From an uncultured Clostridia bacterium (GTDB taxonomy: Bacteria > Bacillota > Clostridia > Christensenellales > UBA1242): DNA of 64,000 bases. Under the pieces are notes generated by a model, which saw nothing but the letters and a program-made list of their open reading frames with translations, was not told where the DNA came from and did no database searches. Positions 5,967 through 50,580 of this stretch are shown here, piece by piece. The stretch is taken from contig CANREZ010000004.1 in NCBI GenBank assembly GCA_947629745.1, forward strand, positions 8,808-72,807. Reading direction: 5' to 3'. A program made the position numbers and the translations under genes. The stretch's first letter is position 1. Each line of letters begins with the position of its first letter.

Positions 5967-6120
5967 GATAAAAATTAAATTTTATACCATAGACAGTACG
6001 GGACATATGTCTTAATAATCGTACCGAGGTTAAAATGTTTAGATTGTGAATTTTGCAACCTTACGCTTTAACTTTGGCGTAAGGTTTTATTTTTATCCAC
6101 ATTTATAAAGGAGGATAATA
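5967..6120 (+). promoter_or_regulatory. Ribosomal protein L10 leader-like 5' UTR with terminator/attenuator hairpin
   Basis: About 150 nt of untranslated leader lies between the promoter and rplJ. A perfect 10-bp stem AACCTTACGC (6057-6066) / GCGTAAGGTT (6078-6087) is followed by TTATTTTTAT, 30 nt before the rplJ RBS. This matches the known L10(L12)4 autoregulatory attenuator layout of Firmicutes. Confidence 0.7.
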
Positions 6121-15468: not shown

Positions 15469-17502
15469 TTAGAATCCGCCGAAGCCGCCAAACCCGCCGA
15501 AGCCGCTCTTCCTCTGTGGGAGGACTACTTGGTTACGATTGCGGATATCGTAGAGCACTTGGGTCTCATCGAAGAATCCAGCTAGCGTCCTATCTGGCTC
15601 AGGCCTACGCATATCAAAGAATTCAGAGAGTTTGTAGGATGGTTGGAATGGCGCTTTGATAGGAGGTTCCTTTAGGATAGAGACTATGAGGTCTTCCTTT
15701 AGCGAACCTAATTCGTCTGGGTAGATAAGTGGACGTTGTTCCTTGCTAACTTGTGTTGAGGAGCTCTTACTCTTCTTGTCACCCTCACCGCTAGATGAAG
15801 ACGACTTTGTTGTCGTGGTGACTGTGGTGTTACCGCAACGCTCAGAGAACGCTTTCTTCGTCTCATCATCGTTTGAGGCAATATACACGTGCATATTGCA
15901 GTTGTCACGCACGATGGCTGCCACTTCGTTGCCATACTTGGTATTTAGCTGAGTGTAGGATTGTAGTATCAGACAGAAGAATATGTGACGAGAACGTGCC
16001 ACAGTGATCTTGTTGTCAAACCTATCAATTGGTGGCATATTCGCGAACTCATCTAGGATGAAGTACGTTGGATGTTTTAGATAGGCCTTTTGGTCGTCAT
16101 TTGCTATTCTACCATTCTCACGAGCAATCTCAGTTAAGGTCTTGTACAATTGTGAGATGAATAGAGTAGCTATCTTGTGCCTACCTACTTTCTCATCAGG
16201 AATCTTGATGAACAATGCAGTAGATTGGTCGTCAAAGTGGGATAGGTCCATCTCATTTGCACTAGTGCAGTAGCATATACCTGCATCGGTAAACGGCTCT
16301 AGATAACCAGAGGAGATAGATAGGTAGTTTTGCTTGGTCTTATCGCTATTCTTTATAACCTCACTGGATAGATTCACCGAGTGACAAGTCACAGGCCTGC
16401 CGTTGAAATAATCCGTGATGGACAACATATCGTTATTTGGGTCATTATCTCGGTAGTTTGCAATCTGCGCTACGTTAAAGAAATTGAATTTGTCCCTTGT
16501 CATGCCAAGGTCTGGATTATCGCTATCCTCTAGCATAGCGAGCATCACGGCGTTAACGAAGTTTTTTGCACCCATTTCCCAACGTGGGTCATTCTTTGAC
16601 TCGACGATACACAGCGCTTCGCAAATTTCTTTTAGTTCAGCCTCTGCAAGCACTCTGTATTGTTGCTGAGATGCTGTTAGTGCGCGCTCGAGATCTTCCT
16701 TTGTAGCATAAGCATTTCCCTCATATTCGTACCATGGGGAAGTGTATGTGACGTCTTTTGAATAAGCAAGGGTCGGGTAACTACTTGGCTGGTCACCCAT
16801 GTTGTGCACGCCCACGCGCTGCTTTGCTGTGCGTGCTTTTTCCCACAAATTGTATGCTCGCTCCATAGGATTCCACCTAGTGGATTTGAATGGTTCATCT
16901 AGGTTAAAGACCATCACACGGTAGCCTTGTTTCCTCAGTTTCTCACTGTGGAGGTTGTACAATTCACCTTTTGGGTCAGTGATGACAATGCTTGGCTTTG
17001 CAGCGCTCTCACTGAATATTTGTATCAAAGGATTGACGAATTGCGTAGTTTTACCAGCACCGGTAGTACCTATGACCAGACAGTGTAGGTCTTTATCATA
17101 CATGTTGACTATGAGTTTGCCATTTTTCTTTTCCACACGCAGAGGGAAACCAACTTTTTTCGAATATTTCAATTTATCATAAGTGGTGAACATATACCTT
17201 GGGGTGTCGTGCAATTCTTTTTCCGTGCACCAATGTTGGTCATAGAATTTGTCCTTATCGGTCTTCACACTCGATCCACCCGAGTCGTCCATCTTCTTTA
17301 GAGCACCTTTTACGCATATTAGTATGGCGATGGCAAGACCCACACCACCTAGCATCAGCGCAAATCCTGAGAAGAAGTCGCTCGCAGCGAGGTTGAATCC
17401 ATCCGATCCGCTGCCAGTCAGACCATTCAGGAATGCTCCTACTAGCACACCAGCGATAGCTCCTCCCAAACACGATATTAGATATTTAACAAAATTTTTC
17501 AT
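15469..17502 (-). CDS. traG: Type IV coupling protein (TraG/VirD4 family ATPase)
   Basis: N-terminal TM helices are followed by Walker A VIGTTGAGKTT, DPKGE, Walker B YFILDEFANMPPI and RSRHIFFCLILQSYTQL, in the order typical of TraG/VirD4. RBS GAGGG. The C-terminus is an unusual GFGGFGGFGGF. Confidence 0.9.
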   Translation of the reverse strand: MKNFVKYLISCLGGAIAGVLVGAFLNGLTGSGSDGFNLAASDFFSGFALMLGGVGLAIAILICVKGALKKMDDSGGSSVKTDKDKFYDQHWCTEKELHDTPRYMFTTYDKLKYSKKVGFPLRVEKKNGKLIVNMYDKDLHCLVIGTTGAGKTTQFVNPLIQIFSESAAKPSIVITDPKGELYNLHSEKLRKQGYRVMVFNLDEPFKSTRWNPMERAYNLWEKARTAKQRVGVHNMGDQPSSYPTLAYSKDVTYTSPWYEYEGNAYATKEDLERALTASQQQYRVLAEAELKEICEALCIVESKNDPRWEMGAKNFVNAVMLAMLEDSDNPDLGMTRDKFNFFNVAQIANYRDNDPNNDMLSITDYFNGRPVTCHSVNLSSEVIKNSDKTKQNYLSISSGYLEPFTDAGICYCTSANEMDLSHFDDQSTALFIKIPDEKVGRHKIATLFISQLYKTLTEIARENGRIANDDQKAYLKHPTYFILDEFANMPPIDRFDNKITVARSRHIFFCLILQSYTQLNTKYGNEVAAIVRDNCNMHVYIASNDDETKKAFSERCGNTTVTTTTKSSSSSGEGDKKSKSSSTQVSKEQRPLIYPDELGSLKEDLIVSILKEPPIKAPFQPSYKLSEFFDMRRPEPDRTLAGFFDETQVLYDIRNRNQVVLPQRKSGFGGFGGFGGF

Positions 17503-17604
17503 AAAACCCTCAACTAGATTTCACTATTATACACTAGTATAATAAAATTTCCTTATTCTTGTCAAAAAATTGTAAGGAGTTTTTTATTCTTTGTGGAGGT
17601 AAGG

Positions 17605-17861
17605 GATGTGACACGCCAGTGTCCTTGAGTATAGTGAGATTATCCATGAAAATGCGACGTAAAACATAACTGTGTATCAACTTTATTCTAATTTAAGGCG
17701 CCCCGTAGTAGGGGGAGCTGTTGGCTCTTGCCAACTGAGGGGATTGTACTCAATTATGACCTTTTTATATAGGCCGCCCTTAGTAAAGGGGGCTGGATGC
17801 GTTAGCAGACTGAGGGGATTGAGCCGACTTTTATCCCTCTTTGTGCCAACTTTATGCCCAC
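17605..17861. repeat. Repeat mosaic A in the traG/pilin divergent spacer (b1 partial, a1, a2 modules)
   Basis: b1 is at 17605-17640 (GATGTGACACGCCAGTGTCCTTGAGTATA). a1 is at 17695-17746 and a2 at 17771-17823, both of the type AAGGCGCCCCGTAGTAGGGGGAGCTG-hairpin-CTGAGGGGATTG. A TGCCAACTTTATGCCCAC tail resembles the b-module end. Confidence 0.8.
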
Positions 17862-18141
17862 TAATAGAAAGTAGCTACCATATTTTTTCATTTCTTATAA
17901 TTTGCTTGTCATCATCAAGGGACATATCGTGCCATCTGATGGGACTAATGTCGACTTCTATCTCCCTCCATATTTTCCTACTCCACCCATCTTTTCTATA
18001 TATTACTATAATAATTATAAATATAAGAATATATGTATAAATATCCAAGTAATTTGGCGCACGTTGTGGCACTTTATGCATTAGGATTTATAAAGAAATG
18101 GCAATTGTAGTAAAAAATTTTATAAAACGTGTGAAAAATAT

Positions 18142-18170
18142 TTGACGATGGGCACGGTATTCGCTAAAAT
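18142..18170 (+). promoter_or_regulatory. Predicted promoter of pilin-like gene 1
   Basis: TTGACG (18142-18147), a 17-nt spacer, then TAAAAT (18165-18170), about 45 nt before the ATG. Confidence 0.6.
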
Positions 18171-18216
18171 ATACTTAAGATTGGTAGCAGCGCATGCTAC
18201 TATATGGGAGGGGAAA

Positions 18217-18555
18217 ATGACAAAGTTCTTAACTTTACTAGGAGAGGTTGAATCTGTTCAGGCACAAGATTGGTACACAAAAATCCTAAAGCCAATTTTG
18301 GATGGAGTTAGAATTGCATTGATTCCTATCATAATAATTGCAGCAGCTGCTGGAACAGGCTACGCAATTTGGTTAGGTGTCAAACTTGCAAAGGCTGATA
18401 GCGATGACGAGCGTACCGAGGCAAAGAAGAAGATGATTTACTTCATCATTGCATTCGTTGTGACAATTATCCTGTTAGTTGTGTTACAGATTCTTGCAAG
18501 TAATGTACAAGTTATCTATGACTTGGCAACTAAAACACAAGATGCTGCAGCATAA
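18217..18555 (+). CDS. Small 2-TM membrane protein, VirB2/TrbC pilin-like T4SS component (paralogue 1)
   Basis: ATG 18217 follows GGGAGGGG. Two hydrophobic helices are separated by a charged loop: IPIIIIAAAAGTGYAIWLGVKLAKADSDDERTEAKKKMIYFIIAFVVTIILLVVL. This is collinear with IPAGGTVYAVSIGIKLARADGEESRKEVKKRLVNSIIGLVAVIGLFIILFLYF in ORF 19236-19730. Confidence 0.7.
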   Translation: MTKFLTLLGEVESVQAQDWYTKILKPILDGVRIALIPIIIIAAAAGTGYAIWLGVKLAKADSDDERTEAKKKMIYFIIAFVVTIILLVVLQILASNVQVIYDLATKTQDAAA

Positions 18556-18579
18556 TGAGCAAAAATTTAGTAGAAAAAG

Positions 18580-18606
18580 TAGAGCCGTGAGGCTCTATTT
18601 TTTTTG
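18580..18606 (+). terminator. Rho-independent terminator of pilin-like gene 1
   Basis: Stem TAGAGCC / GGCTCTA with loop GTGA, followed by a T9 run. Confidence 0.85.
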
Positions 18607-18666
18607 TGCATGAGGGTGAGGGATAAAAATTAAAGTTGGTACATAATGTAGGCAAGAATGCTGATT

Positions 18667-18868
18667 GATGTGGCATGCCACTGTCCTTGATTATAATAAA
18701 GTATGTTTGTTTGATTATTCAAAGGAATGAAGTTGGTATGTGGAATAGGCTCTAGTTCCCACCTTAATACCAACTTTGTTACCCACATTCTAATAATAAA
18801 GTGATGGTAGAGTTGTCTTAAATTGTTATAGATAACTCATTACACTTTAGGAGAGTGGCGTGCCACAC
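18667..18868. repeat. Palindromic element formed by b2 (+) and b3 (-) modules
   Basis: b2 at 18667-18743 and a diverged reverse-complement copy b3 at 18761-18868 are separated by 17 nt. The termini are GTGGCATGCCACTGTCC and GGAGAGTGGCGTGCCAC. There is an internal AAGTTGGTATGTGG / CCAC..ATACCAACTT pairing. The a4 fragment ACTGAGGGGGATTGAG follows at 18867-18882. Confidence 0.8.
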
Positions 18869-19235
18869 TGAGGGGGATTGAGTGTGCTTACGTGCTCGCC
18901 TTGGTACCAACACTTAACCTATCTATATACTATCTGGTCAAATTGATAGTTGCACAAACTACCACGATGTTCCCATAAACACTAATACTATTGTCAATAA
19001 GCATCTATATTATGACAAAAACGCATTAAATTAGAGCAACAAAGAAACCGCCAAGATATGAGGAAGGGAGAGTGGTTATGATCACTATAATTTTCCCATA
19101 CGGCGTCATACTCTAGAGAGTGTGTAACTAGATATAATTATGTGGAATAAATATGAATCAATAATAATTTAGATACGAATTGTATAGACAAGATAATATT
19201 TTTGGTGTAAAATATGATATATGAGGTATGAAAAT

Positions 19236-19730
19236 ATGAGGACCAAGAATTTAAAGAGAAATCTTGCCATAGTATTTGCCGTGAGCTTAGTGCTAGTGCT
19301 AATTAGTATGGTTGTGATGGAAATTTGCACCGGCCATAGTGTGAGTGCACTGCTAAATAATGGCATATTAGGTGACCCTAATACTTCAAGCAGTATGCCA
19401 AATACTAGTGGTGATCAATATACCGCTGATGACCCTAGATTCGCTGAGATCATGGGTGGATTCAAGGTATTCTTCATTGTGATGTTGATAGTGATACCTG
19501 CTGGTGGCACGGTGTATGCAGTGTCAATTGGTATCAAACTTGCACGTGCTGATGGTGAAGAGTCGAGGAAGGAAGTAAAAAAACGTTTGGTCAATTCCAT
19601 CATCGGTCTAGTTGCTGTGATTGGTCTATTCATTATATTATTCCTATACTTCAATAACTATCGCGTTATAAATGATTACCTCCGCCAGATGTTCGGCACT
19701 CTGCATTCATCCAATATTCCACAAGAGTAA
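19236..19730 (+). CDS. Small membrane protein, VirB2/TrbC pilin-like T4SS component with signal-peptide-like N-terminus (paralogue 2)
   Basis: ATG 19236 lies 9 nt after TGAGG. The N-terminus is MRTKNLKRNLAIVFAVSLVLVLISMVVMEI. The C-terminal 2-TM core is collinear with ORF 18217-18555. Confidence 0.7.
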   Translation: MRTKNLKRNLAIVFAVSLVLVLISMVVMEICTGHSVSALLNNGILGDPNTSSSMPNTSGDQYTADDPRFAEIMGGFKVFFIVMLIVIPAGGTVYAVSIGIKLARADGEESRKEVKKRLVNSIIGLVAVIGLFIILFLYFNNYRVINDYLRQMFGTLHSSNIPQE

Positions 19731-19798
19731 ACGTGGTTGATATAACGAAATATTTGGTTTGTGTAAGTAAAAACATATTTAAAATAATAAAAATTAAA

Positions 19799-19825
19799 AT
19801 ATCCCTCAAATGGGATATTTTTTTG
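19799..19825 (+). terminator. Rho-independent terminator of pilin-like gene 2
   Basis: Stem ATATCCC / GGGATAT with a 6-nt loop, followed by a T run. Confidence 0.8.
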
Positions 19826-19893
19826 ATTAATACTACACCTCATTAGGCGATTAGGCGCTCACAAGTGCGGATAAAAATTAATTATAACCTTGT

Positions 19894-20044
19894 AAGGCGC
19901 CCCGTAGTAGGGGGAGCTGGATGCACGAAGTGCAGACTGAGGGGATTGAGCAAGCTCCTACGCTTACCCCACATACCAACTTCATTCTCTCTAGATAATC
20001 AAACAAACATATTTTATATAACCCAGGAGAGTGGCGTGCCACAC
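19894..20044. repeat. Repeat mosaic C upstream of virB4 (a3 module plus b4 module in minus orientation)
   Basis: The first 26 nt of a3 (19894-19950) are identical to a1 (17695-17720). b4 (19969-20044) is about 80 percent identical to the reverse complement of b2 (18667-18743). Confidence 0.85.
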
Positions 20045-20153
20045 AAACTTTTGGGCAAAAAGATAATTTGGGTTATTTTAGTTTGTAAAATGACCCAGAT
20101 GTTGTATAGTATTATATATAATCTAACTTTATTATAGATAGAGGTAAATAAAA

Positions 20154-22820
20154 ATGGCTGCAAAATTTATTCCAAGACGTACTAAACTCAAATTGGAGTT
20201 GTACAAGAATATAACATTCGGGGACGTGGGCATTGCCCTAGTCGGTATCGCGATACTATTCTTGCTACTATTCTCCACATTCCAGTTCCACATATATGTG
20301 GCAATAGCATTCGCTACACTGTGGTGTATGCTATTCGTCCCAGTCTCGGATGGTGTGAAAATTTATGGCGCGGTGATCCTCGCATTCAGATTCATCTCGT
20401 TTAGGAAATCTTATGAGAAGAAATACACCAACAAAGCACATGACATCAAAAAGATTCTCCCATACGAGGGTATCTCCCTTGGACAATTCATCTCCTATGG
20501 TGAATACTACGGCATGGTGCTTGAGATCGACCCTATAGAATTCTTCCTCTTAGATGAGGAGAAACAAGAGGGCGTGGTGCGAACCATGACCAACGCAATC
20601 CATAGACTTGGCATGGACCAGTACATGACCATTGTGAAATTGAAGAAACCTATGATCCTCGACCAATTGCAAAATTATGAAGACGACAAATACAATACAC
20701 TGCTTGATATGACAGAACGTGGTCTGTATGAGAAATATGAGATTGAGGCAAGGTCACCTGTCTTTGAGGAAAGATTAGCCACAATCAGACAACTAAATTA
20801 CGACAACAAGATCCTAAAGAGCCACTACTACTTCGTAGTCTACGACAAGAGTAGGGAGCAACTTAGGAGTTCCATAATGGGTATGATATCGGCACTAAGT
20901 GCCTCAGCTACGCCAATAACTGCCAACATATTGTCAGGAAATGAGCTTTTAGCGTTCCTAAAAGCAAATTACGATAGCAACTTTGATGAACGTGATCTAG
21001 ATATCCTCACAGCAGATGAGCAAGTGGCTTGGACTAGGCCAAACAAAGTGAGGTTCTCTAGCCTAAATACTTATATCGACGACGTGGCATACCGCACGTT
21101 CACCATATCCGAATATCCAATATATGTGCCAAATGCTTGGGCTTATCCGTTATTTGAGCTCGACCAATGTAGAGTCGTGGTCAATATAGAGCCTATAGGG
21201 AAGTTTGAGGCTGAGAAGATGCTGGATAGATCCATCGTGGAGGTGGATGGCAAACTGCGTAAGGCTGGTGGAGAGGGCGCAAAGATTGAGTTACAGACCC
21301 ACCGTGAGACATTGACCGACTTGCTCGCATCACTTAAGAATAGTAGTGAAAACCTCTTCAACGTCAATATCCATATCGTGGCAGAGGATAGCCAAAAGAA
21401 AGAAGTGCGTGCAACGCTAAAGCAGAATGGCTATAGATACACCGAGAATTTCGGTAGACAAGTGGATGCCTTCATATCTACTTCTCCATCAAGGCTCGAC
21501 AAATTGAAGTATTACAAACGTGGTATGCAGACAAGTACTGTTGCTGCTATGTTCCCATATATCTCGTCAGCTTTGCAAGATAAGCGTGGATTCTACCTCG
21601 GGTATAACCAATATCCAGTGTTCACCGATTTCTTCCAGAGAAACGATATTCGTACCAATTCCAATATGATGATAATAGGAAAGTCTGGTAGCGGAAAATC
21701 TTATGCTACGAAAACTCTACTTGCTAACCTCGCTGCGGACAACACGCGCATATTTATCCTCGACCCTGAGGATGAGTACCGACCAATATGCGATCACTTG
21801 GGTGGCAAGATTATCGATGTCGGTAATAGTAGTGATGGTATCTTCAATCCATTCCATATATTCACCACACTTAAGGCTGATGAGGGTGATAGCGATGACT
21901 CCTACAACGCGCATTTGCAGTTCCTTGAGCAATTCTTTAGGCTGATATTGCCGGGGATGAGTGCCGATGCTTTTGAGAAGTTAAATTCATTGTTAGTCAA
22001 ACTGTATGCATCAAAGGGCATTGACGAGACCACAAGGCTTGAGGCTCTAAGACCTGAGGATTATCCAATATTTGACGACCTTATCAAGATCATAGATAAG
22101 GAACTGAAGACCGAGAAGGACGATTATCAGCACTCGCAGCTGCAGACCATTCGTGTCTATATAGAGAAATTCGCTTCAGGCGGCAGGAACTCCAACCTTT
22201 GGAATGGTCCAACCAGCATTGAGACCAATGAAAACTTCGTTTGTTTCAACTTCCGTACTCTAACTAACAACCGAAACGACATTATCACCAACGCGCAGAT
22301 GTTACTTGTCTTCAAGTATCTAGATAACGAGATTAGTAAGAACAAGGACTTCAACGACAAGTACTTCCCAGAGATGCCAGGTGAGGATAGGGATGAGAAC
22401 GAATTCAGGCGAATAATCGTGGCTGTCGATGAGGCGCACGTCTTCATCAATCCAAAGTATCCAATAGCACTGGACTTCATGGCTAACATGGCAAAACGTA
22501 TCAGAAAGTATCATGGAATGCAGATAATTATCACGCAGAATATCCACGACTTCGTGGGATCAGAGGAGATTGAGAGGCAGTCCACTGCAGTTATCAACGC
22601 GTGCCAATACTCCATGATCTTCTCACTTGCGCCAAACGATATGACCGAGCTTATCACTCTGTATAAGAACGCAGGTGGTATCAACAAGGAAGAGCAAGAC
22701 CAGATCGTGACCGCACCTCGTGGACAATGCTTCCTCATCACGGGCCCTATGAATAGGAGTATAGTGAGGATTGAGGCACTGCCAACTGTGCAGTATTTAT
22801 TCAAACGTGACGATGAATAG
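20154..22820 (+). CDS. virB4: VirB4/TrsE-type T4SS ATPase with N-terminal membrane (VirB3-like) segment
   Basis: RBS GAGG. N-terminal helices are VGIALVGIAILFLLLF, IYVAIAFATLWCMLFVPV and YGAVILAFRFI. Walker A is IIGKSGSGKSYATK and Walker B is RIIVAVDEAHVF, followed by IIITQNIHDF. Confidence 0.9.
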   Translation: MAAKFIPRRTKLKLELYKNITFGDVGIALVGIAILFLLLFSTFQFHIYVAIAFATLWCMLFVPVSDGVKIYGAVILAFRFISFRKSYEKKYTNKAHDIKKILPYEGISLGQFISYGEYYGMVLEIDPIEFFLLDEEKQEGVVRTMTNAIHRLGMDQYMTIVKLKKPMILDQLQNYEDDKYNTLLDMTERGLYEKYEIEARSPVFEERLATIRQLNYDNKILKSHYYFVVYDKSREQLRSSIMGMISALSASATPITANILSGNELLAFLKANYDSNFDERDLDILTADEQVAWTRPNKVRFSSLNTYIDDVAYRTFTISEYPIYVPNAWAYPLFELDQCRVVVNIEPIGKFEAEKMLDRSIVEVDGKLRKAGGEGAKIELQTHRETLTDLLASLKNSSENLFNVNIHIVAEDSQKKEVRATLKQNGYRYTENFGRQVDAFISTSPSRLDKLKYYKRGMQTSTVAAMFPYISSALQDKRGFYLGYNQYPVFTDFFQRNDIRTNSNMMIIGKSGSGKSYATKTLLANLAADNTRIFILDPEDEYRPICDHLGGKIIDVGNSSDGIFNPFHIFTTLKADEGDSDDSYNAHLQFLEQFFRLILPGMSADAFEKLNSLLVKLYASKGIDETTRLEALRPEDYPIFDDLIKIIDKELKTEKDDYQHSQLQTIRVYIEKFASGGRNSNLWNGPTSIETNENFVCFNFRTLTNNRNDIITNAQMLLVFKYLDNEISKNKDFNDKYFPEMPGEDRDENEFRRIIVAVDEAHVFINPKYPIALDFMANMAKRIRKYHGMQIIITQNIHDFVGSEEIERQSTAVINACQYSMIFSLAPNDMTELITLYKNAGGINKEEQDQIVTAPRGQCFLITGPMNRSIVRIEALPTVQYLFKRDDE

Positions 22821-22825
22821 GATAG

Positions 22826-22852
22826 AGCAAGGTATAGTGCCTTGCTTTTTTT
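22826..22852 (+). terminator. Rho-independent terminator of virB4
   Basis: Stem AGCAAGG / CCTTGCT with loop TATAGTG, followed by a T7 run. Confidence 0.85.
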
Positions 22853-22962
22853 GTGTGGAGTAGGTGGCGGGGTGCGGGCTGCTAGCAGAGCTAGCAGGCC
22901 CACGAGCCCCTGGGGCTCCCGCCGCTCCCGCGGCGGAGCACCCCGCCACATACTTCGCACAA
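22851..22962. other. GC-rich four-way-junction palindrome (candidate structured RNA or ssDNA/cruciform element)
   Basis: The 25-bp outer stem pairs 22851-22875 with 22938-22962, including a perfect 12-bp GTGGCGGGGTGC/GCACCCCGCCAC. It encloses three abutting hairpins at 22876-22901, 22904-18 and 22919-36. By my count 69 of 87 nt in 22863-22949 are G/C, in an AT-rich context. Confidence 0.7.
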
Positions 22963-23018
22963 AAATAGCACACACTATATCAAATTCTACTATGACAATA
23001 ATTTTATACTAAATGCAT

Positions 23019-23047
23019 TTGATTTTTGTCGTAATATGTAATATAAT
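23019..23047 (+). promoter_or_regulatory. Predicted promoter of the VirB6-like gene
   Basis: TTGATT (23019-23024), a 17-nt spacer, then TATAAT (23042-23047). Confidence 0.6.
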
Positions 23048-23080
23048 AAACTTATAGAATAATGACTCGGAGGAAAAACT

Positions 23081-25768
23081 ATGTTCTCTGTAATGAATCT
23101 AGGCATCATCGATACCATTATGAGCTGGTTGATGAATCTATTTTCAACTGGATTGTTGCTTGCAGTTAATTTGATTTACGCTATATTTAGCAAACTATTA
23201 TTCCTGATCGGTGCAGCGTTCGCTAATATTGCAGATTTCTTCCAAGCAGTTTTTCGTGCCCTTGCAGGTATCGGCACTCCAGGGTATAACAAGGTACTCC
23301 AGATGGAGTTTACCGAACAAGTTGCTCAAGACCCTATCCTTAGAGTCATAACTAGTGAAGTTGTCATCAATCTATTCATATCCATGATGGTCCTTGCAAT
23401 AGGCATCGTCATCGTATCTACTATCGTTGCTATGATCAGACAGGAATATGCTACCGATGGTGGAGATAAGAATAGTAAATCTGAGATTTTAGGCAAAGCC
23501 GTCAAAGCTTTTGCAAATTTCGTCATAGTGCCTGTGGCATGCGTGGTGGGAATACTCCTTGCTAACACATTGCTCCGCTGGGTAGATTATGCTACGGCGA
23601 ATGGCAATGATACCACAATCGGCGCACAAGTATTCTACGCATCAGCGTACAATGCCAATAAGATGCGAAGTAGTGGCCATAAGTCTAGCCAGTTAGTCTC
23701 CCTAGAGGGTACGATATTTGAAAATTTTGACTTGACCGCATTTATATACAATCCAAGTGGTGGTGCGGGACAGTATTTTACTAGTGATGAACAGTCACCT
23801 AATACAGGTTGGAGTAATAGTATCTATAGCAATGGTCAAACTATTGGTAACAACAATATGACTTGCAACGAGATTGCTAATCTTATCGACCAAGCCTTCT
23901 TAAACTTTGATGAAATTATAGAGAATGACCAAGACCACGACCTAGGTTTCGGGGCTACATATTTCGATTACAAATATCAGGATACTGTGGACGAGTACTA
24001 CAATCTCGGCGCTATCAATTACATAATCTTCATCGCGGGAGAAGTTGCGGTCATGTGGATGATGCTCAATATGACTCTCGGTATGATGAAACGTATCTAT
24101 CTTGCCGCTATTTACTTCGTCATAGGTCCTCCAATTATCGGTCTCACGCCTATCAAGGACGGCCTTAGCAAATGGAGAGGAGACTTCATCAATAATGTCC
24201 TATCCGCATTTGCTCCAGTCGTGGGATTAAATATATTCTTCCAGATATTGCCAGCTATCAATACTATCAATATCTTTGCAAGTAATCAATCATCCTACAA
24301 TGCTATCATCCATATGCTATTTGCTATAGTGGGCCTCATGGTGCTAAATGAGATGTCGAAGGCCATTTCCTCGCTACTTGGCACAGGCGACGCCCTCGAG
24401 ACAGGAAAAGGTATGTCAAAGCAAGTTGCTGCCGGTGCTGCTAAAGTCGGTGCAGTTGCTCTAGGTTTAGGCGGTGCAACAATAAAGGGTGTTTCTATGG
24501 CTAATAAACTTCGTCAATCTATGTCTAACAGTATGGCCGCAGGAAAAGCAAATAATTTAGATGCAGGTGAACTTGATACATATCGAAAAGAAGAAGCCGT
24601 TTCAAAAAAATATGCAGGTCAGAAAGTTGGCGATATTGTATCTGATTATTCAAAAGACAGAGCAGAATTTAATAAAACTTATGGCGGAACTACGGCGGAA
24701 CGTGATGCCAAAGAAAAAGCAGCTCAAGCTTCCATGTCAGCTGATGATTTTAAAGCTTGGAAAGAAGAGCGTGATAATAAGAGAAAAGATTTAGATACTA
24801 GGAAAGACGACTTAGATATTATTAGAAAGGGTGCATATTTCCAGAGGGATGCAAAATCTGGACAATTCACCAGGAATAAGAGCGCTGAAAATGCTAAGAA
24901 ATTAAAGAAACTCAGCAATAGACTTGATAATAATGATATAGTAGAGACTGTTGACAGTAGTGGCAAGAAGACATATGAATCGAATCTTCAAAATAGATGG
25001 CATCAATTTACGAAAAATCCAGGTGCAGTGGGAGGTTGGATTACAGATAAAGGTAAATCTCTCTTAGGTGGTCTTAGAGAATCTACTGTGGGTAGATTAA
25101 ATGAAGGAATCGATAGTTCCATTAATATGCTGGGTGAAGCAGCTCATTTTGATATGAAGAAAGCTAGGTCCAAAGCAGCTCAAGGAAAAGGTAAGATACT
25201 TGAGCGTGTGTTAGGAGGCGTAGGAAATAAGCTTGCCGAGCCTATCGACTTTACTGGCCCAACAGGTTCACAAGCAGCTGCTGCTAGATTTAGTGCAGCA
25301 CAACAAGCTCTATCCGGTGTTGATACTAAAGCATTTGCTAAAGCGTTCCTAGATAAAATGTATTCTGCATTAAAGAGTAAAGATATAAATGCTAATAAGT
25401 TAGGCATGAAAATGGCAAAGCAAGCAGGTATTAAACTTGATAAAACTACCATAGATGATATTAAAAATGGAAGTATCGCTAAAGGTAAATTCACAGATGA
25501 TGAAAATCGTCAAAGGGCGGTCATCAATGCTGCTACATTGCATATGTCTGCAGGAAAGACTCACATGGATAGTGAATTGCTAGCACAACTTGAGAGGAAC
25601 TCTGACCACGTTGTATCAAAATTTGTTCACGAACTTAGAGAATTATCTAAGAGTACTAAGGATAGCAACAAGAAGATTATTGATGCAAGCAAGAGTGACA
25701 ATCAGAAACTTATCGACAAACTTGACGAATTGGTTAAACTCTCAAGAGATGATAAGAAGAAGCCATAA
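23081..25768 (+). CDS. Polytopic membrane protein, VirB6/TrbL-like, with a long hydrophilic K-rich C-terminal domain
   Basis: RBS GGAGG. About 7-8 hydrophobic helices lie in the first ~440 aa (e.g. VVINLFISMMVLAIGIVIVSTIVAMI, FANFVIVPVACVVGILLANTLL, IYLAAIYFVIGPPIIGL). The next ~450 aa are charged and coil-like. The gene sits directly after virB4, as in many T4SS loci. Assignment rests on topology and context only. Confidence 0.55.
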   Translation: MFSVMNLGIIDTIMSWLMNLFSTGLLLAVNLIYAIFSKLLFLIGAAFANIADFFQAVFRALAGIGTPGYNKVLQMEFTEQVAQDPILRVITSEVVINLFISMMVLAIGIVIVSTIVAMIRQEYATDGGDKNSKSEILGKAVKAFANFVIVPVACVVGILLANTLLRWVDYATANGNDTTIGAQVFYASAYNANKMRSSGHKSSQLVSLEGTIFENFDLTAFIYNPSGGAGQYFTSDEQSPNTGWSNSIYSNGQTIGNNNMTCNEIANLIDQAFLNFDEIIENDQDHDLGFGATYFDYKYQDTVDEYYNLGAINYIIFIAGEVAVMWMMLNMTLGMMKRIYLAAIYFVIGPPIIGLTPIKDGLSKWRGDFINNVLSAFAPVVGLNIFFQILPAINTINIFASNQSSYNAIIHMLFAIVGLMVLNEMSKAISSLLGTGDALETGKGMSKQVAAGAAKVGAVALGLGGATIKGVSMANKLRQSMSNSMAAGKANNLDAGELDTYRKEEAVSKKYAGQKVGDIVSDYSKDRAEFNKTYGGTTAERDAKEKAAQASMSADDFKAWKEERDNKRKDLDTRKDDLDIIRKGAYFQRDAKSGQFTRNKSAENAKKLKKLSNRLDNNDIVETVDSSGKKTYESNLQNRWHQFTKNPGAVGGWITDKGKSLLGGLRESTVGRLNEGIDSSINMLGEAAHFDMKKARSKAAQGKGKILERVLGGVGNKLAEPIDFTGPTGSQAAAARFSAAQQALSGVDTKAFAKAFLDKMYSALKSKDINANKLGMKMAKQAGIKLDKTTIDDIKNGSIAKGKFTDDENRQRAVINAATLHMSAGKTHMDSELLAQLERNSDHVVSKFVHELRELSKSTKDSNKKIIDASKSDNQKLIDKLDELVKLSRDDKKKP

Positions 25769-49935: not shown

Positions 49936-50002
49936 ATGCATAAAAATGGCAAAAAAACGGATACTACGATTAGGTGGCAGATACTTTTGAAGGTGGATAT
50001 GT

Positions 50003-50215
50003 ATGGCAAAAGACCAGTTAGGAAATAATCTAGATACTACTATCCGTGAGCATATTTTGGCTTTGCAGCATAAAATGAAGCAAGTAGACATGGATGCAAT
50101 CTATAGCGCATATTACGCATCGAGCGCTCCTATCGAAGACTTAGGTACGGGATACGAGGAATTAGTAGATTATGAAAACAAGTTAGGTGACGATATTGGA
50201 AATCAGACGCGGTGA
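50003..50215 (+). CDS. Putative antitoxin in the MazE/EndoAI position
   Basis: The ORF is 70 aa, has RBS GAAGGTGGA, an acidic C-terminus, and overlaps the mazF start by 29 nt. No clear RHH/AbrB motif was recognised. Confidence 0.45.
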
Positions 50216-50543
50216 TATATTCTATGCAGATCTTAGTCCCGTTGTGGGTAGCGAACAGGGTGGAGTGCGCCCTGTCCTTGTCTTGCAGAACGATATAGGC
50301 AATAAATATAGCCCTTGCGTCATAGTATCGGCTATCACCTCCAAGATCACTAAGACCAAACTCCCTACTCACGTGGAGTTACATAAAGGGGATAGCAATT
50401 TGCCAAGTGATTCGGTGATACTCCTAGAGCAGATCAGGACGATAGATAAGCATAGACTAAAGGAATTCGTAGGGAGTCTAGATAGCAAGTTACTTACAGC
50501 AGTCTCCGATGCACTTCTAATATCCCTAGGATTTATTCACTAG
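50187..50543 (+). CDS. mazF: MazF/EndoA (PemK-family) endoribonuclease toxin
   Basis: [59 protein letters not shown] is near-collinear with B. subtilis EndoA. The location downstream of acpS matches Bacillus. Confidence 0.9.
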
Positions 50544-50580
50544 AATACTTTTTGGAATCAATTTAATAGAAATTTTGCCA

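What the first reader, a model, noticed from the sequence alone, without database searches (positions are those of the whole stretch)
17605..20044. Inverted ~77-bp modules carrying a GTGGCRTGCCAC palindrome bracket each pilin-like gene
The b-modules occur in this order: b1(+) 17605-17640, pilin gene 1, b2(+) 18667-18743, b3(-) 18761-18868, pilin gene 2, b4(-) 19969-20044.

- The reverse complement of b2 and b4 match over about 77 nt. CCACATACCAACTTCATTC and ATAATCAAACAAACATA are identical, and overall identity is roughly 80 percent by my alignment.
- Each module terminus holds a 12-bp palindrome: the perfect GTGGCATGCCAC at 18670-18681, GTGGCGTGCCAC at 18855-18866 and at 20031-20042, and a degenerate copy at 17608-17619.
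- So (b1,b3) and (b2,b4) are inverted pairs, each enclosing one pilin-like gene with its promoter. b2/b3 alone form a 200-bp hairpin element.

Possible readings are invertible or recombining cassettes for pilin variation, operator sites for a dimeric regulator, or MITE-like insertions. No recombinase gene is visible nearby, which weakens the inversion idea.
Basis: partly seen in the sequence, partly recalled or inferred. Interest (0 to 1): 0.7.

Follow-up and report, generated by a model that had tools for sequence, protein, structure and literature searches.

The report
Locus-restricted mosaic hairpin repeats between T4SS genes
The inverted palindrome-bearing modules around the two pilin-like genes are real, but they look like lineage-specific hairpin-forming repeat DNA wedged between terminators and promoters, not a pilin inversion switch.

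Summary
Four b cores of about 36 nt sit at 17605, 18667, 18834 and 20010 in the order → → ← ←. b2 and b4 are inverted copies (84% over 83 nt). b1 and b3 are weaker inverted copies (77% over 47 nt). b2+b3 fold into a 200-nt hairpin (z = -6.6).

The b cores are one part of a larger mosaic. It also holds three A modules (57-60 nt), an A-tail fragment abutting b3, a 13-nt C motif and a 13-nt X motif. All of these lie in three consecutive spacers of a chromosomal Gram-positive-type T4SS cluster. None occurs elsewhere in the 64 kb.

Fifty-seven orthologous loci from related Christensenellales/Clostridia lack the modules. The three read closely (L002, L076, L001) have short AT-rich spacers. In L002 and L076 the same promoters and terminators lie close together. 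So the modules are lineage-specific insertions.

Each pilin gene keeps its own promoter and terminator inside the "bracket". The window has no recombinase. The b1/b3 arms share no long identical core. Inversion is therefore not supported.

The best reading is MITE/REPIN/BIME-like repeat DNA that spread locally (0.45). Regulatory exaptation as operator or promoter is a live rival. The source species is known from a single assembly, so orientation variants and genome-wide copy number could not be tested.

The parts
17605..17653 (+). b1: core 17605-17640 with degenerate palindrome GTGACACGCCAG; promoter-shaped (GTGACA-16-TATAGT)
17675..17689 (+). C motif TATCAACTTTATTCT
17694..17750 (+). A1 module: two short hairpins followed by ACTGAGGGGATTG
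17769..17825 (+). A2 module, 75 nt downstream of A1
18142..18170 (+). Promoter of pilin gene 1 (TTGACG-17-TAAAAT), conserved in L076 and L002
18217..18555 (+). T4SS pilin-like gene 1 (PF18895, 31.5 bits)
18580..18606 (+). Intrinsic terminator of pilin gene 1. The scan scored it on the minus strand only; plus-strand function is read from the following T-run.
18621..18633 (+). X motif GGATAAAAATTAA, exact second copy at 19869
18667..18750 (+). b2: perfect palindrome GTGGCATGCCAC; promoter-shaped (GTGGCA-16-TATAAT); contains an exact C motif on the minus strand at 18726
18822..18868 (-). b3: palindrome GTGGCGTGCCAC; a C motif lies at 18768-18780 (+). Together with b2 it forms the 18670-18866 hairpin.
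18864..18881 (+). A-tail fragment ACTGAGGGGGATTGAG abutting the b3 palindrome, which sits where hairpin 2 of an A module would be
19185..19213 (+). Promoter of pilin gene 2 (TAGACA-17-TAAAAT), conserved in L076 and L002
19236..19730 (+). T4SS pilin-like gene 2 (PF18895, 26.2 bits)
19796..19828 (.). Bidirectional intrinsic terminator of pilin gene 2
19869..19881 (+). X motif, second copy
19893..19952 (+). A3 module
19962..20044 (-). b4: inverted copy of b2 (84% over 83 nt); palindrome GTGGCGTGCCAC; C motif at 19974
20083..20110 (+). Likely VirB4 promoter (TTGTAA-16-TATAGT), partly alignable to L076 and L002

Best explanation
The b modules, together with the A, C and X motifs, are copies and fragments of a small, non-coding, hairpin-forming repeat family. 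In kind it resembles a MITE, REPIN or BIME.

In this one lineage the family was inserted and then spread locally into three consecutive terminator-to-promoter gaps of a chromosomal T4SS cluster. b2+b3 is the one intact unit: about 200 bp, with terminal inverted repeats of about 20 nt (TGTGGCAYGCCACTSTCCT) that begin in the 12-bp palindrome. b1 and b4 are solo ends.

b1 and b3 share one kind of subterminal sequence, and b2 and b4 share the other. This is what the two different ends of one element would look like. It explains why the best-matching pairs are interleaved, without invoking inversion.

The apparent bracketing of each pilin gene is a by-product. Repeats in opposite orientations landed in successive spacers.

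- **Shown:** the repeats, their confinement to this locus, their absence from relatives, the retained promoters and terminators, and the hairpin.
- **Inferred:** mobility or local duplication as the origin, the reading of b1..b4 as element ends, and the lack of a dedicated function.
For: - **Spacer lengths.** The spacers are 714, 680 and 423 nt here (coordinates). In the closest relatives L076 and L002 they are about 160-310 nt, AT-rich, and hold only a terminator and a promoter.
- **Retained signals.** The conserved promoter cores survive at the spacer edges in the window. The back-to-back -35 boxes (AGTCAAAAATATTTGACT in L076 and L002) are pushed about 570 nt apart.
- **Absence from relatives.** No b, A or C motif occurs in 57 related loci totalling about 0.68 Mb. 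None of those loci has dispersed inverted repeats.
- **Hairpin unit.** b2+b3 is bounded by terminal inverted repeats and folds with z = -6.6.
- **Nested architecture.** b2/b3 sits exactly where hairpin 2 of an A module would be. The X motif lies upstream and the A tail downstream, colinear with X-A3 at 19869-19952.
- **Divergence.** Copies differ by 14-23%. This is typical of decaying repeats and not of homogenised recombination sites.
- **Composition.** The modules are richer in G+C (0.58-0.62) than the surrounding spacers.
- **Other upheaval.** A second, unrelated GC-rich hairpin insertion follows VirB4. The VirB4 and p895 cassettes are swapped relative to 34 of 39 informative relatives. This stretch has therefore been structurally unstable in this lineage.
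Against: - No copy of any module lies in the other 61.6 kb of the window. The family is therefore low-copy or confined to this locus, unlike classical REP or MITE families.
- No target-site duplication flanks b2/b3, b1 or b4 (by eye). The flanks of the first-spacer insertion share an A-rich stretch of about 16 nt, but it is too low in complexity to count.
- Pfam finds no transposase or RAYT in the window.
- Pattern scans of IMG/VR and JGI metagenomes gave only chance hits. Blastn of spacer DNA found nothing in PLSDB or INPHARED (first spacer only).
- Three hits in three adjacent spacers by a low-copy element needs local hopping, local duplication, or selection for a local function.
Confidence: 0.45

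Rival explanations
1. The b cores are cis-regulatory modules: an operator for a dimeric DNA-binding protein overlapping a promoter. They would have been recruited, possibly on a repeat element, to co-regulate the first T4SS transcription units. The palindrome GTGGCAYGCCAC would be the operator, covering a -35-like hexamer. b1 and b2 would be extra upstream promoters giving long leaders for pilin genes 1 and 2.
For: - The most conserved stretch of the four cores is the 20-nt TGTGGCAYGCCACTSTCCT, not the flanks.
- b1 (GTGACA-16-TATAGT) and b2 (GTGGCA-16-TATAAT) score 10/12. They are among the six best sigma-70-like sites in 3 kb, and three of those six are the conserved real promoters.
- The minus-oriented copies b3 and b4 have the two key -10 positions broken (TGTAAT, TATATA).
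- The sites occur only in this cluster.
- A palindrome of similar shape (GTAGCA-5-TGCTAC) lies in the pilin-1 5'UTR.
- b1 lies about 40 nt and b4 about 45 nt upstream of the -35 boxes of the T4CP and VirB4 promoters.
Against: - Promoter-likeness is weak statistically. Six sites of at least 10/12 were found against 2.1 +/- 1.4 expected, three of them are known promoters, and b1 and b2 are homologous, so they count as one event.
- The sites are absent from the orthologous promoters of all relatives, which carry the same genes.
- The cluster holds no lineage-specific regulator gene. Gene content matches L076.
- b2 and b3 lie more than 300 nt from the pilin-2 promoter.
- An operator does not need the 83-nt b2/b4 similarity.
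Confidence: 0.25
2. The b cores are crossover sites for a site-specific recombinase encoded elsewhere in the genome. This would resemble RecV-type invertons, shufflons or Xer-dependent pdif modules. The recombinase would invert segments (b1/b3, b2/b4, b1/b4, b2/b3) or excise them (direct pairs b1/b2 and b3/b4). The units moved would be promoter-gene-terminator cassettes.
For: - The four sites have the geometry → → ← ←. The b3/b4 direct repeats are 20/20 identical, and b2/b4 share exact runs of 19 and 17 nt.
- Modules sit exactly at cassette borders, between a terminator and the next promoter.
- The VirB4 and p895 cassettes are swapped relative to near relatives.
- Trans-acting recombinases encoded far from their sites are known (my own knowledge).
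Against: - Inversion would not change promoter-gene linkage, because each gene carries its own promoter and terminator.
- b1/b3 have no identical core longer than about 8 nt. The central dinucleotides of the palindromes differ (AT in b2, GT in b3 and b4).
- The window has no recombinase.
- The junctions created by the VirB4/p895 swap carry no b motif. One has an unrelated GC hairpin and one has nothing.
- The architecture is absent from 57 related loci.
- The 14-23% divergence argues against ongoing exchange.
Confidence: 0.07
3. The modules act as RNA. The A modules (two hairpins plus a conserved tail) and the long b2:b3 hairpin would be cis-acting transcript elements. Possible roles are processing or stability determinants, or put-like processive antitermination across the terminators that follow each pilin gene.
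For: - The A copies keep two hairpins. Hairpin 2 changes sequence and length while staying paired (GUUGGC/GCCAAC versus UGCAC/GUGCA), with one compensatory pair.
- The b2:b3 hairpin is very stable.
- The modules lie in the sense orientation between terminators and the next genes.
Against: - Covariation is not significant with three copies (159 of 500 shuffles reach the score).
- A-module folds are not unusually stable (z from -0.4 to -2.1).
- Rfam gives no match even at E up to 10.
- b1 and b2 are inverted relative to b3 and b4, so no single strand carries one consistent RNA.
- Relatives have the same terminators but no such elements.
Confidence: 0.1

Closest known systems
REP / REPIN / BIME elements (extragenic palindromic repeats and their inverted doublets; comparison from my own knowledge)
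   Same: - Short imperfect palindromes in extragenic DNA downstream of genes.
- Copies in both orientations.
- An inverted doublet that folds into a long hairpin (b2/b3, like a REPIN), with solo copies beside it.
- A mosaic with other short motifs, as in BIMEs.
   Different: - Known families have tens to hundreds of copies spread over the genome. Here all copies lie within 2.4 kb, and none in the other 61.6 kb.
- The b2-b3 arms are about 185 nt apart, further than in typical REPINs.
- No RAYT gene was seen.
- Known families are mainly proteobacterial, while this organism belongs to the Christensenellales/Clostridia.
MITEs (for example Correia elements, RUP and BOX; comparison from my own knowledge)
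   Same: - Small and non-coding.
- Terminal inverted repeats that start with TG and end with CA.
- Folds as a hairpin.
- Can carry promoter-like or protein-binding sequences.
- Present here and absent from relatives.
   Different: - No target-site duplication.
- No dispersed copies detected.
- No parent IS known.
- Most copies are partial or solo ends.
Invertible DNA switches and shufflons (fim, hin, C. difficile RecV invertons, the R64 shufflon; comparison from my own knowledge)
   Same: Inverted repeats flank DNA segments next to surface-structure genes. Several sites occur in mixed orientation.
   Different: - The segments contain whole, self-sufficient genes, not a promoter or alternative gene ends.
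- The repeats are long and diverged, not short and identical.
- No recombinase is present in the window.
- The arrangement is not conserved in relatives.

Membership tests
Site-specific invertible switch / shufflon | A pair of inverted repeats with an identical crossover core | tested here: inconclusive
   b2/b4 share exact runs of 19 and 17 nt. b1/b3 share at most about 8 nt. The palindrome centres differ, AT versus GT.
Site-specific invertible switch / shufflon | Inversion changes expression, by moving a promoter or swapping gene segments | tested here: not met
   Each segment contains a complete pilin gene with its own conserved promoter and terminator. The repeats lie outside the coding sequences.
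Site-specific invertible switch / shufflon | A dedicated recombinase | tested here: not met
   No recombinase, integrase or transposase Pfam hit among the ORFs scanned. That set was 38 of the larger ORFs across the window, omitting the two largest (2623 and 1878 aa) and rplJ/rplL. The rest of the genome cannot be tested.
Site-specific invertible switch / shufflon | Both orientations present in a population | not testable with these tools
   The species is represented by one assembly. VirB4 is a 1-member cluster with the next relative at 76%. Exact look-ups of VirB4 and both pilins find no other contig.
MITE | Terminal inverted repeats, small size, no coding capacity | tested here: met
   b2/b3 is 202 bp with arms of about 20 nt (TGTGGCATGCCACTGTCCT versus TGTGGCACGCCACTCTCCT). 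It folds as a hairpin with z = -6.6.
MITE | Target-site duplication | tested here: not met
   The flanks ...GATTGA|TGTGG and CCACA|CTGAGG share no direct repeat. The same holds for b1 and b4.
MITE | Multiple dispersed copies | tested here: not met
   No copy lies outside 17.6-20.05 kb in the 64 kb. The rest of the genome is not available.
MITE | Empty sites in related genomes | tested here: met
   L002, L076 and L001 have short spacers without the modules. Promoter cores flanking the insertions align.
REP / REPIN / BIME | Short extragenic imperfect palindromes, with inverted doublets forming hairpins | tested here: met
   A 12-bp palindrome lies in each core, and b2/b3 form a doublet hairpin.
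REP / REPIN / BIME | High genome-wide copy number and an associated RAYT transposase | tested here: not met
   There are zero copies in the other 61.6 kb and no Y1 transposase in the window. Genome-wide status cannot be tested.
Transcription-factor operator | A palindromic site at a fixed position relative to regulated promoters, conserved across orthologous promoters | tested here: inconclusive
   Palindromic: yes. Positions vary: about 40-45 nt upstream of the -35 box for b1 and b4, and more than 300 nt away for b2 and b3. The sites are absent from orthologous promoters.
Structured non-coding RNA (A module) | Significant covariation, or a match to a curated family | tested here: not met
   One compensatory pair, with 159 of 500 shuffles as good. 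No Rfam match at E up to 10. A covariance model finds no copy in 57 related loci.

The most novel reading that the evidence does not exclude
The b cores are binding and crossover sites for a protein encoded elsewhere in the genome. That protein either co-regulates or physically reshuffles self-contained promoter-gene-terminator cassettes of a domesticated chromosomal T4SS. The VirB4/p895 order swap that is unique to this lineage would be a footprint of such cassette shuffling.
Probability: 0.08. Interest if true: 0.65.

Novelty: new member of a known kind. Interest (0 to 1): 0.3.

Why it matters
If the repeats are only selfish or duplicated hairpin DNA, the value is modest.
- They document a new, apparently locus-restricted repeat family in an uncultured gut Clostridia lineage.
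- They show how intergenic insertions can triple spacer length inside a conserved T4SS cluster without disturbing its promoters and terminators.
- They warn against reading any inverted repeats around surface-structure genes as a phase-variation switch.

If the minority reading were true (sites used by a regulator or recombinase), this would be a recent re-wiring or cassette shuffling of a chromosomal T4SS.

Tried and rejected
1. **Rfam.** Gathering thresholds on the whole window, and E up to 10 on 17400-20250, gave nothing relevant. No tRNA or tmRNA was found.
2. **Public collections.**
   - PLSDB blastn with 17500-20150 and INPHARED blastn with 17560-18140: no match.
   - IMG/VR pattern scans for the b core, the A tail, A hairpin 1 and the b2/b4 19-mer: chance hits only, and flanks unrelated.
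   - JGI metagenome scan for the b core: 13 hits, all chance. Six are one ORF-poor locus seen in several samples that shares only 22 nt, which I take to be host DNA.
3. **Same species elsewhere.** Exact look-ups of VirB4 and both pilins found nothing on record.
4. **Extra degenerate b cores.** I thought I saw them at 17925-17948 and 19058-19083. They would have supported a tidy nested-element model, but they are not significant by profile search or shuffled local alignment. I dropped them.
5. **Coding potential.** ORFs run through the A modules (17672-18040 and 19865-20137 on the plus strand, 19878-20042 on the minus strand). I rejected them by eye:
   - no usable ribosome-binding site or start spacing;
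   - junk-like composition;
   - one copy is interrupted by a stop;
   - overlap with the VirB4 promoter.
6. **Motif resemblances checked by eye against consensus sequences from memory.**
   - CRISPR-repeat resemblance of A hairpin 1 (type I-C-like GCGCCCC...TGGAT): superficial, and the window has no repeat array.
   - Sigma-54, CRP/FNR, Rex, cre, dif/Xer and hix-type site consensus: none fits.
7. **Assembly artefact.** Rejected, because the arms are imperfect and lie inside the contig.
Full report
**Context.** The finding lies in a chromosomal Gram-positive-type T4SS cluster.
- A coupling protein (T4SS-DNA_transf/TraG-D_C, 15469-17502, minus strand) is transcribed divergently from the rest.
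- Next come two small T4SS_pilin (PF18895) genes at 18217-18555 and 19236-19730.
- Then follow a VirB4-like ATPase (20154-22820) and large membrane and surface proteins.
- The cluster sits between rplJ/rplL (L10 leader at 5969-6100) and housekeeping genes: a Spo0A_C protein, D-Ala-D-Ala carboxypeptidases, ScpA/B and others.
- Pfam finds no recombinase, transposase or relaxase among the ORFs scanned. The 2623-aa and 1878-aa ORFs and rplJ/rplL were not scanned.
- VirB4 relatives are all gut Christensenellales/Clostridia MAGs.
- The source species is a singleton. Its VirB4 is a 1-member cluster on one 86.5-kb NCBI contig, and the next relative is 76% identical.

**The observation.** It is confirmed.
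- The palindromes are at the stated positions. They are far more frequent than chance: 18 matches at up to 2 mismatches against 4.6 +/- 3.0, with 0 of 100 shuffles reaching 18.
- b2 and b4 are inverted copies, 84-87% identical over 76-83 nt, E = 1e-17.
- b1 and b3 are inverted copies, 77% over 47 nt.
- b1 and b2 are direct copies, 86% over 29 nt.
- b3 and b4 share an exact 20-mer.
- A profile of the four cores retrieves exactly four sites in 64 kb, each at E about 1e-9.
- b2+b3 fold as one 200-nt hairpin with z = -6.6.
The b1/b3 pair and the b2/b4 pair each enclose one pilin gene with its promoter.

The b cores are one component of a mosaic.
- Three A modules of 57-60 nt lie at 17694, 17769 and 19893. 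Each has two short hairpins followed by ACTGAGGGGATTGAG.
- An A-tail fragment directly abuts the b3 palindrome at 18864-18881.
- A 13-nt C motif (TAYCAACTTYATT) has 5 of its 7 best window hits inside 17.67-19.99 kb.
- A 13-nt X motif occurs exactly twice, at 18621 and 19869.
- The second and third spacers are colinear: X, then a variable middle, then the A tail, then C.
- The middle is A3's two hairpins in the third spacer and the whole b2/b3 hairpin in the second.
- In the covariance-model alignment the b3 palindrome takes the place of A hairpin 2.
- All of this is confined to three consecutive spacers. Nothing related occurs in the other 61.6 kb.

**Comparison with relatives.**
- In the closest loci the spacers are 160-310 nt. 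These loci are L076 (VirB4 76%), L002 (75%) and L001 (67%).
- Those spacers are AT-rich and consist of a terminator followed by a promoter.
- In the window they are 714, 680 and 423 nt.
- The conserved promoter cores are still present at the spacer edges:
  - TTGAC(T/G)-17-TAAAAT for pilin 1;
  - TATAGACAA...GTGTAAAAT for pilin 2;
  - TTGATTTTTGT... for p895;
  - a weaker match for VirB4.
- The two back-to-back -35 boxes of the divergent T4CP and pilin-1 promoters are 6 nt apart in L076 and L002. In the window they are about 570 nt apart.
- None of the motifs occurs in any of 57 related loci. None of those loci has dispersed inverted repeats; they have only local terminator palindromes.
- So the modules are extra DNA acquired in this lineage, placed in the gaps between terminators and promoters.

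**Other upheaval in the same stretch.**
- An unrelated 125-nt GC-rich multi-hairpin follows the VirB4 terminator (z = -9.0). It is absent from L076 and L002.
- The VirB4 and p895 cassettes are in the opposite order to 34 of 39 informative relatives.

**Why inversion is unlikely.**
- Each bracketed segment contains a complete gene with its own promoter and intrinsic terminator, so flipping it changes no promoter-gene linkage.
- b1/b3 have no long identical core. The palindrome centres differ between b2 (AT) and b3 and b4 (GT).
- Overall divergence is 14-23%. This is what decaying repeats look like, not sites kept identical by ongoing exchange.
- The window has no recombinase.
- The genes are VirB2-type T4SS pilins. 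From my own knowledge, inversion-based variation is not the known theme for these.
- The interleaved pairing (b1 with b3, b2 with b4) has a simpler reading. If an element has two different ends, L and R, then b2/b3 is an intact L...R unit, b4 is a solo L end and b1 is a solo R end.
- With two types among four sites, an interleaved order arises by chance one time in three.
- I cannot exclude inversion or excision without reads, and no second assembly of this species exists.

**Best explanation and rivals.**
- I favour a low-copy MITE/REPIN/BIME-like hairpin repeat family that spread locally (0.45).
  - Its main weakness is the lack of dispersed copies, target duplications and a transposase.
  - Three hits in three adjacent spacers need local hopping, local duplication or local selection.
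- The main rival, which is not exclusive, is regulatory use (0.25).
  - The best-conserved part is a 20-mer containing the palindrome.
  - b1 and b2 are promoter-shaped, among the six best sigma-70-like sites in 3 kb. The expectation is 2.1 +/- 1.4, and 5 of 300 shuffles reach six. Three of the six are the true promoters.
  - The minus-oriented copies have the critical -10 positions broken.
  - Against it, the sites are missing from all orthologous promoters, and the cluster has no lineage-specific regulator.
- An RNA role for the A modules is weakly supported (0.1).
  - There is one compensatory pair, which is not significant.
  - Fold stability is unremarkable, and Rfam gives no match.
- Site-specific recombination is possible but unsupported (0.07).

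**Verdict.** This is a real, statistically solid and previously unseen sequence family of a familiar kind. It is most likely repeat DNA, not a pilin-variation device. Interest is modest. Read mapping and a whole-genome copy count would settle it.

Noticed in passing
window 22849-22973: A GC-rich (66%) multi-hairpin of about 125 nt lies immediately after the VirB4 terminator. A long closing stem (TTTTTGTG..GTGGCGGGGTGC / GCACCCCGCCAC..CACAAAAA) encloses three inner hairpins. MFE is -84 kcal/mol and z = -9.0. It is unrelated in sequence to b and A, and absent from the equivalent spacers of L076 and L002.
   Followed up: partly
window 20154-25768, compared with L001-L056 and L076: The gene order is VirB4 then the 895-aa membrane protein. 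In 34 of 39 informative related loci the p895-like gene lies upstream of VirB4. Each gene kept its own promoter. So this is a lineage-specific swap of promoter-gene-terminator cassettes, next to the repeat-laden spacers.
   Followed up: partly
window 18184-18200: The pilin-1 5'UTR hairpin GTAGCAgcgcaTGCTAC has the same arm shape as the b palindrome (GTRGCA...TGCYAC). Six such dyads occur in the window against 0.4 expected, and four of them lie in 18.18-20.04 kb.
   Followed up: partly
window 7380-33535 and L076: The T4SS-like cluster is chromosomal. It comprises a giant 2623-aa surface protein, a T4CP, two pilins, VirB4, and 895-aa and 1437-aa proteins. It is syntenic in the close relative L076, and partly in L002, and VirB4 homologues occur across related MAGs. 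Housekeeping genes flank it, and the window has no relaxase, so it may not be a conjugation system.
   Followed up: no
window 32801-33535 and 32191-32304: A 244-aa protein has only a Spo0A_C DNA-binding domain, with no receiver-domain hit. It follows the cluster both here and in L076. A 51-nt tandem repeat (2.2 copies) lies in its upstream spacer.
   Followed up: no
window about 49990-50545: Two small ORFs in a gap that looks intergenic resemble a mazE/mazF (PemK-type) toxin-antitoxin pair. The motif [16 protein letters not shown] was seen by eye. They were missed by the 120-aa ORF list.
   Followed up: no
window 17558-17577 and 18131-18150: Both flanks of the 570-nt insertion in the first spacer carry a diverged copy of the ancestral A-rich -35/-35 core (GTCAAAAAATTGTAAG and GTGAAAAATATTTGAC). 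This may be a duplication of about 16 nt made at insertion. It is too low in complexity to call.
   Followed up: partly
L077, L080, L083-L085, L088 (JGI metagenome contigs): One ORF-poor locus seen in six metagenome contigs shares the 22-mer AGGACAGTGGCATGCCACATC with b2. The flanks are unrelated, and I read it as host DNA. It is a chance match, not a relative.
   Followed up: yes
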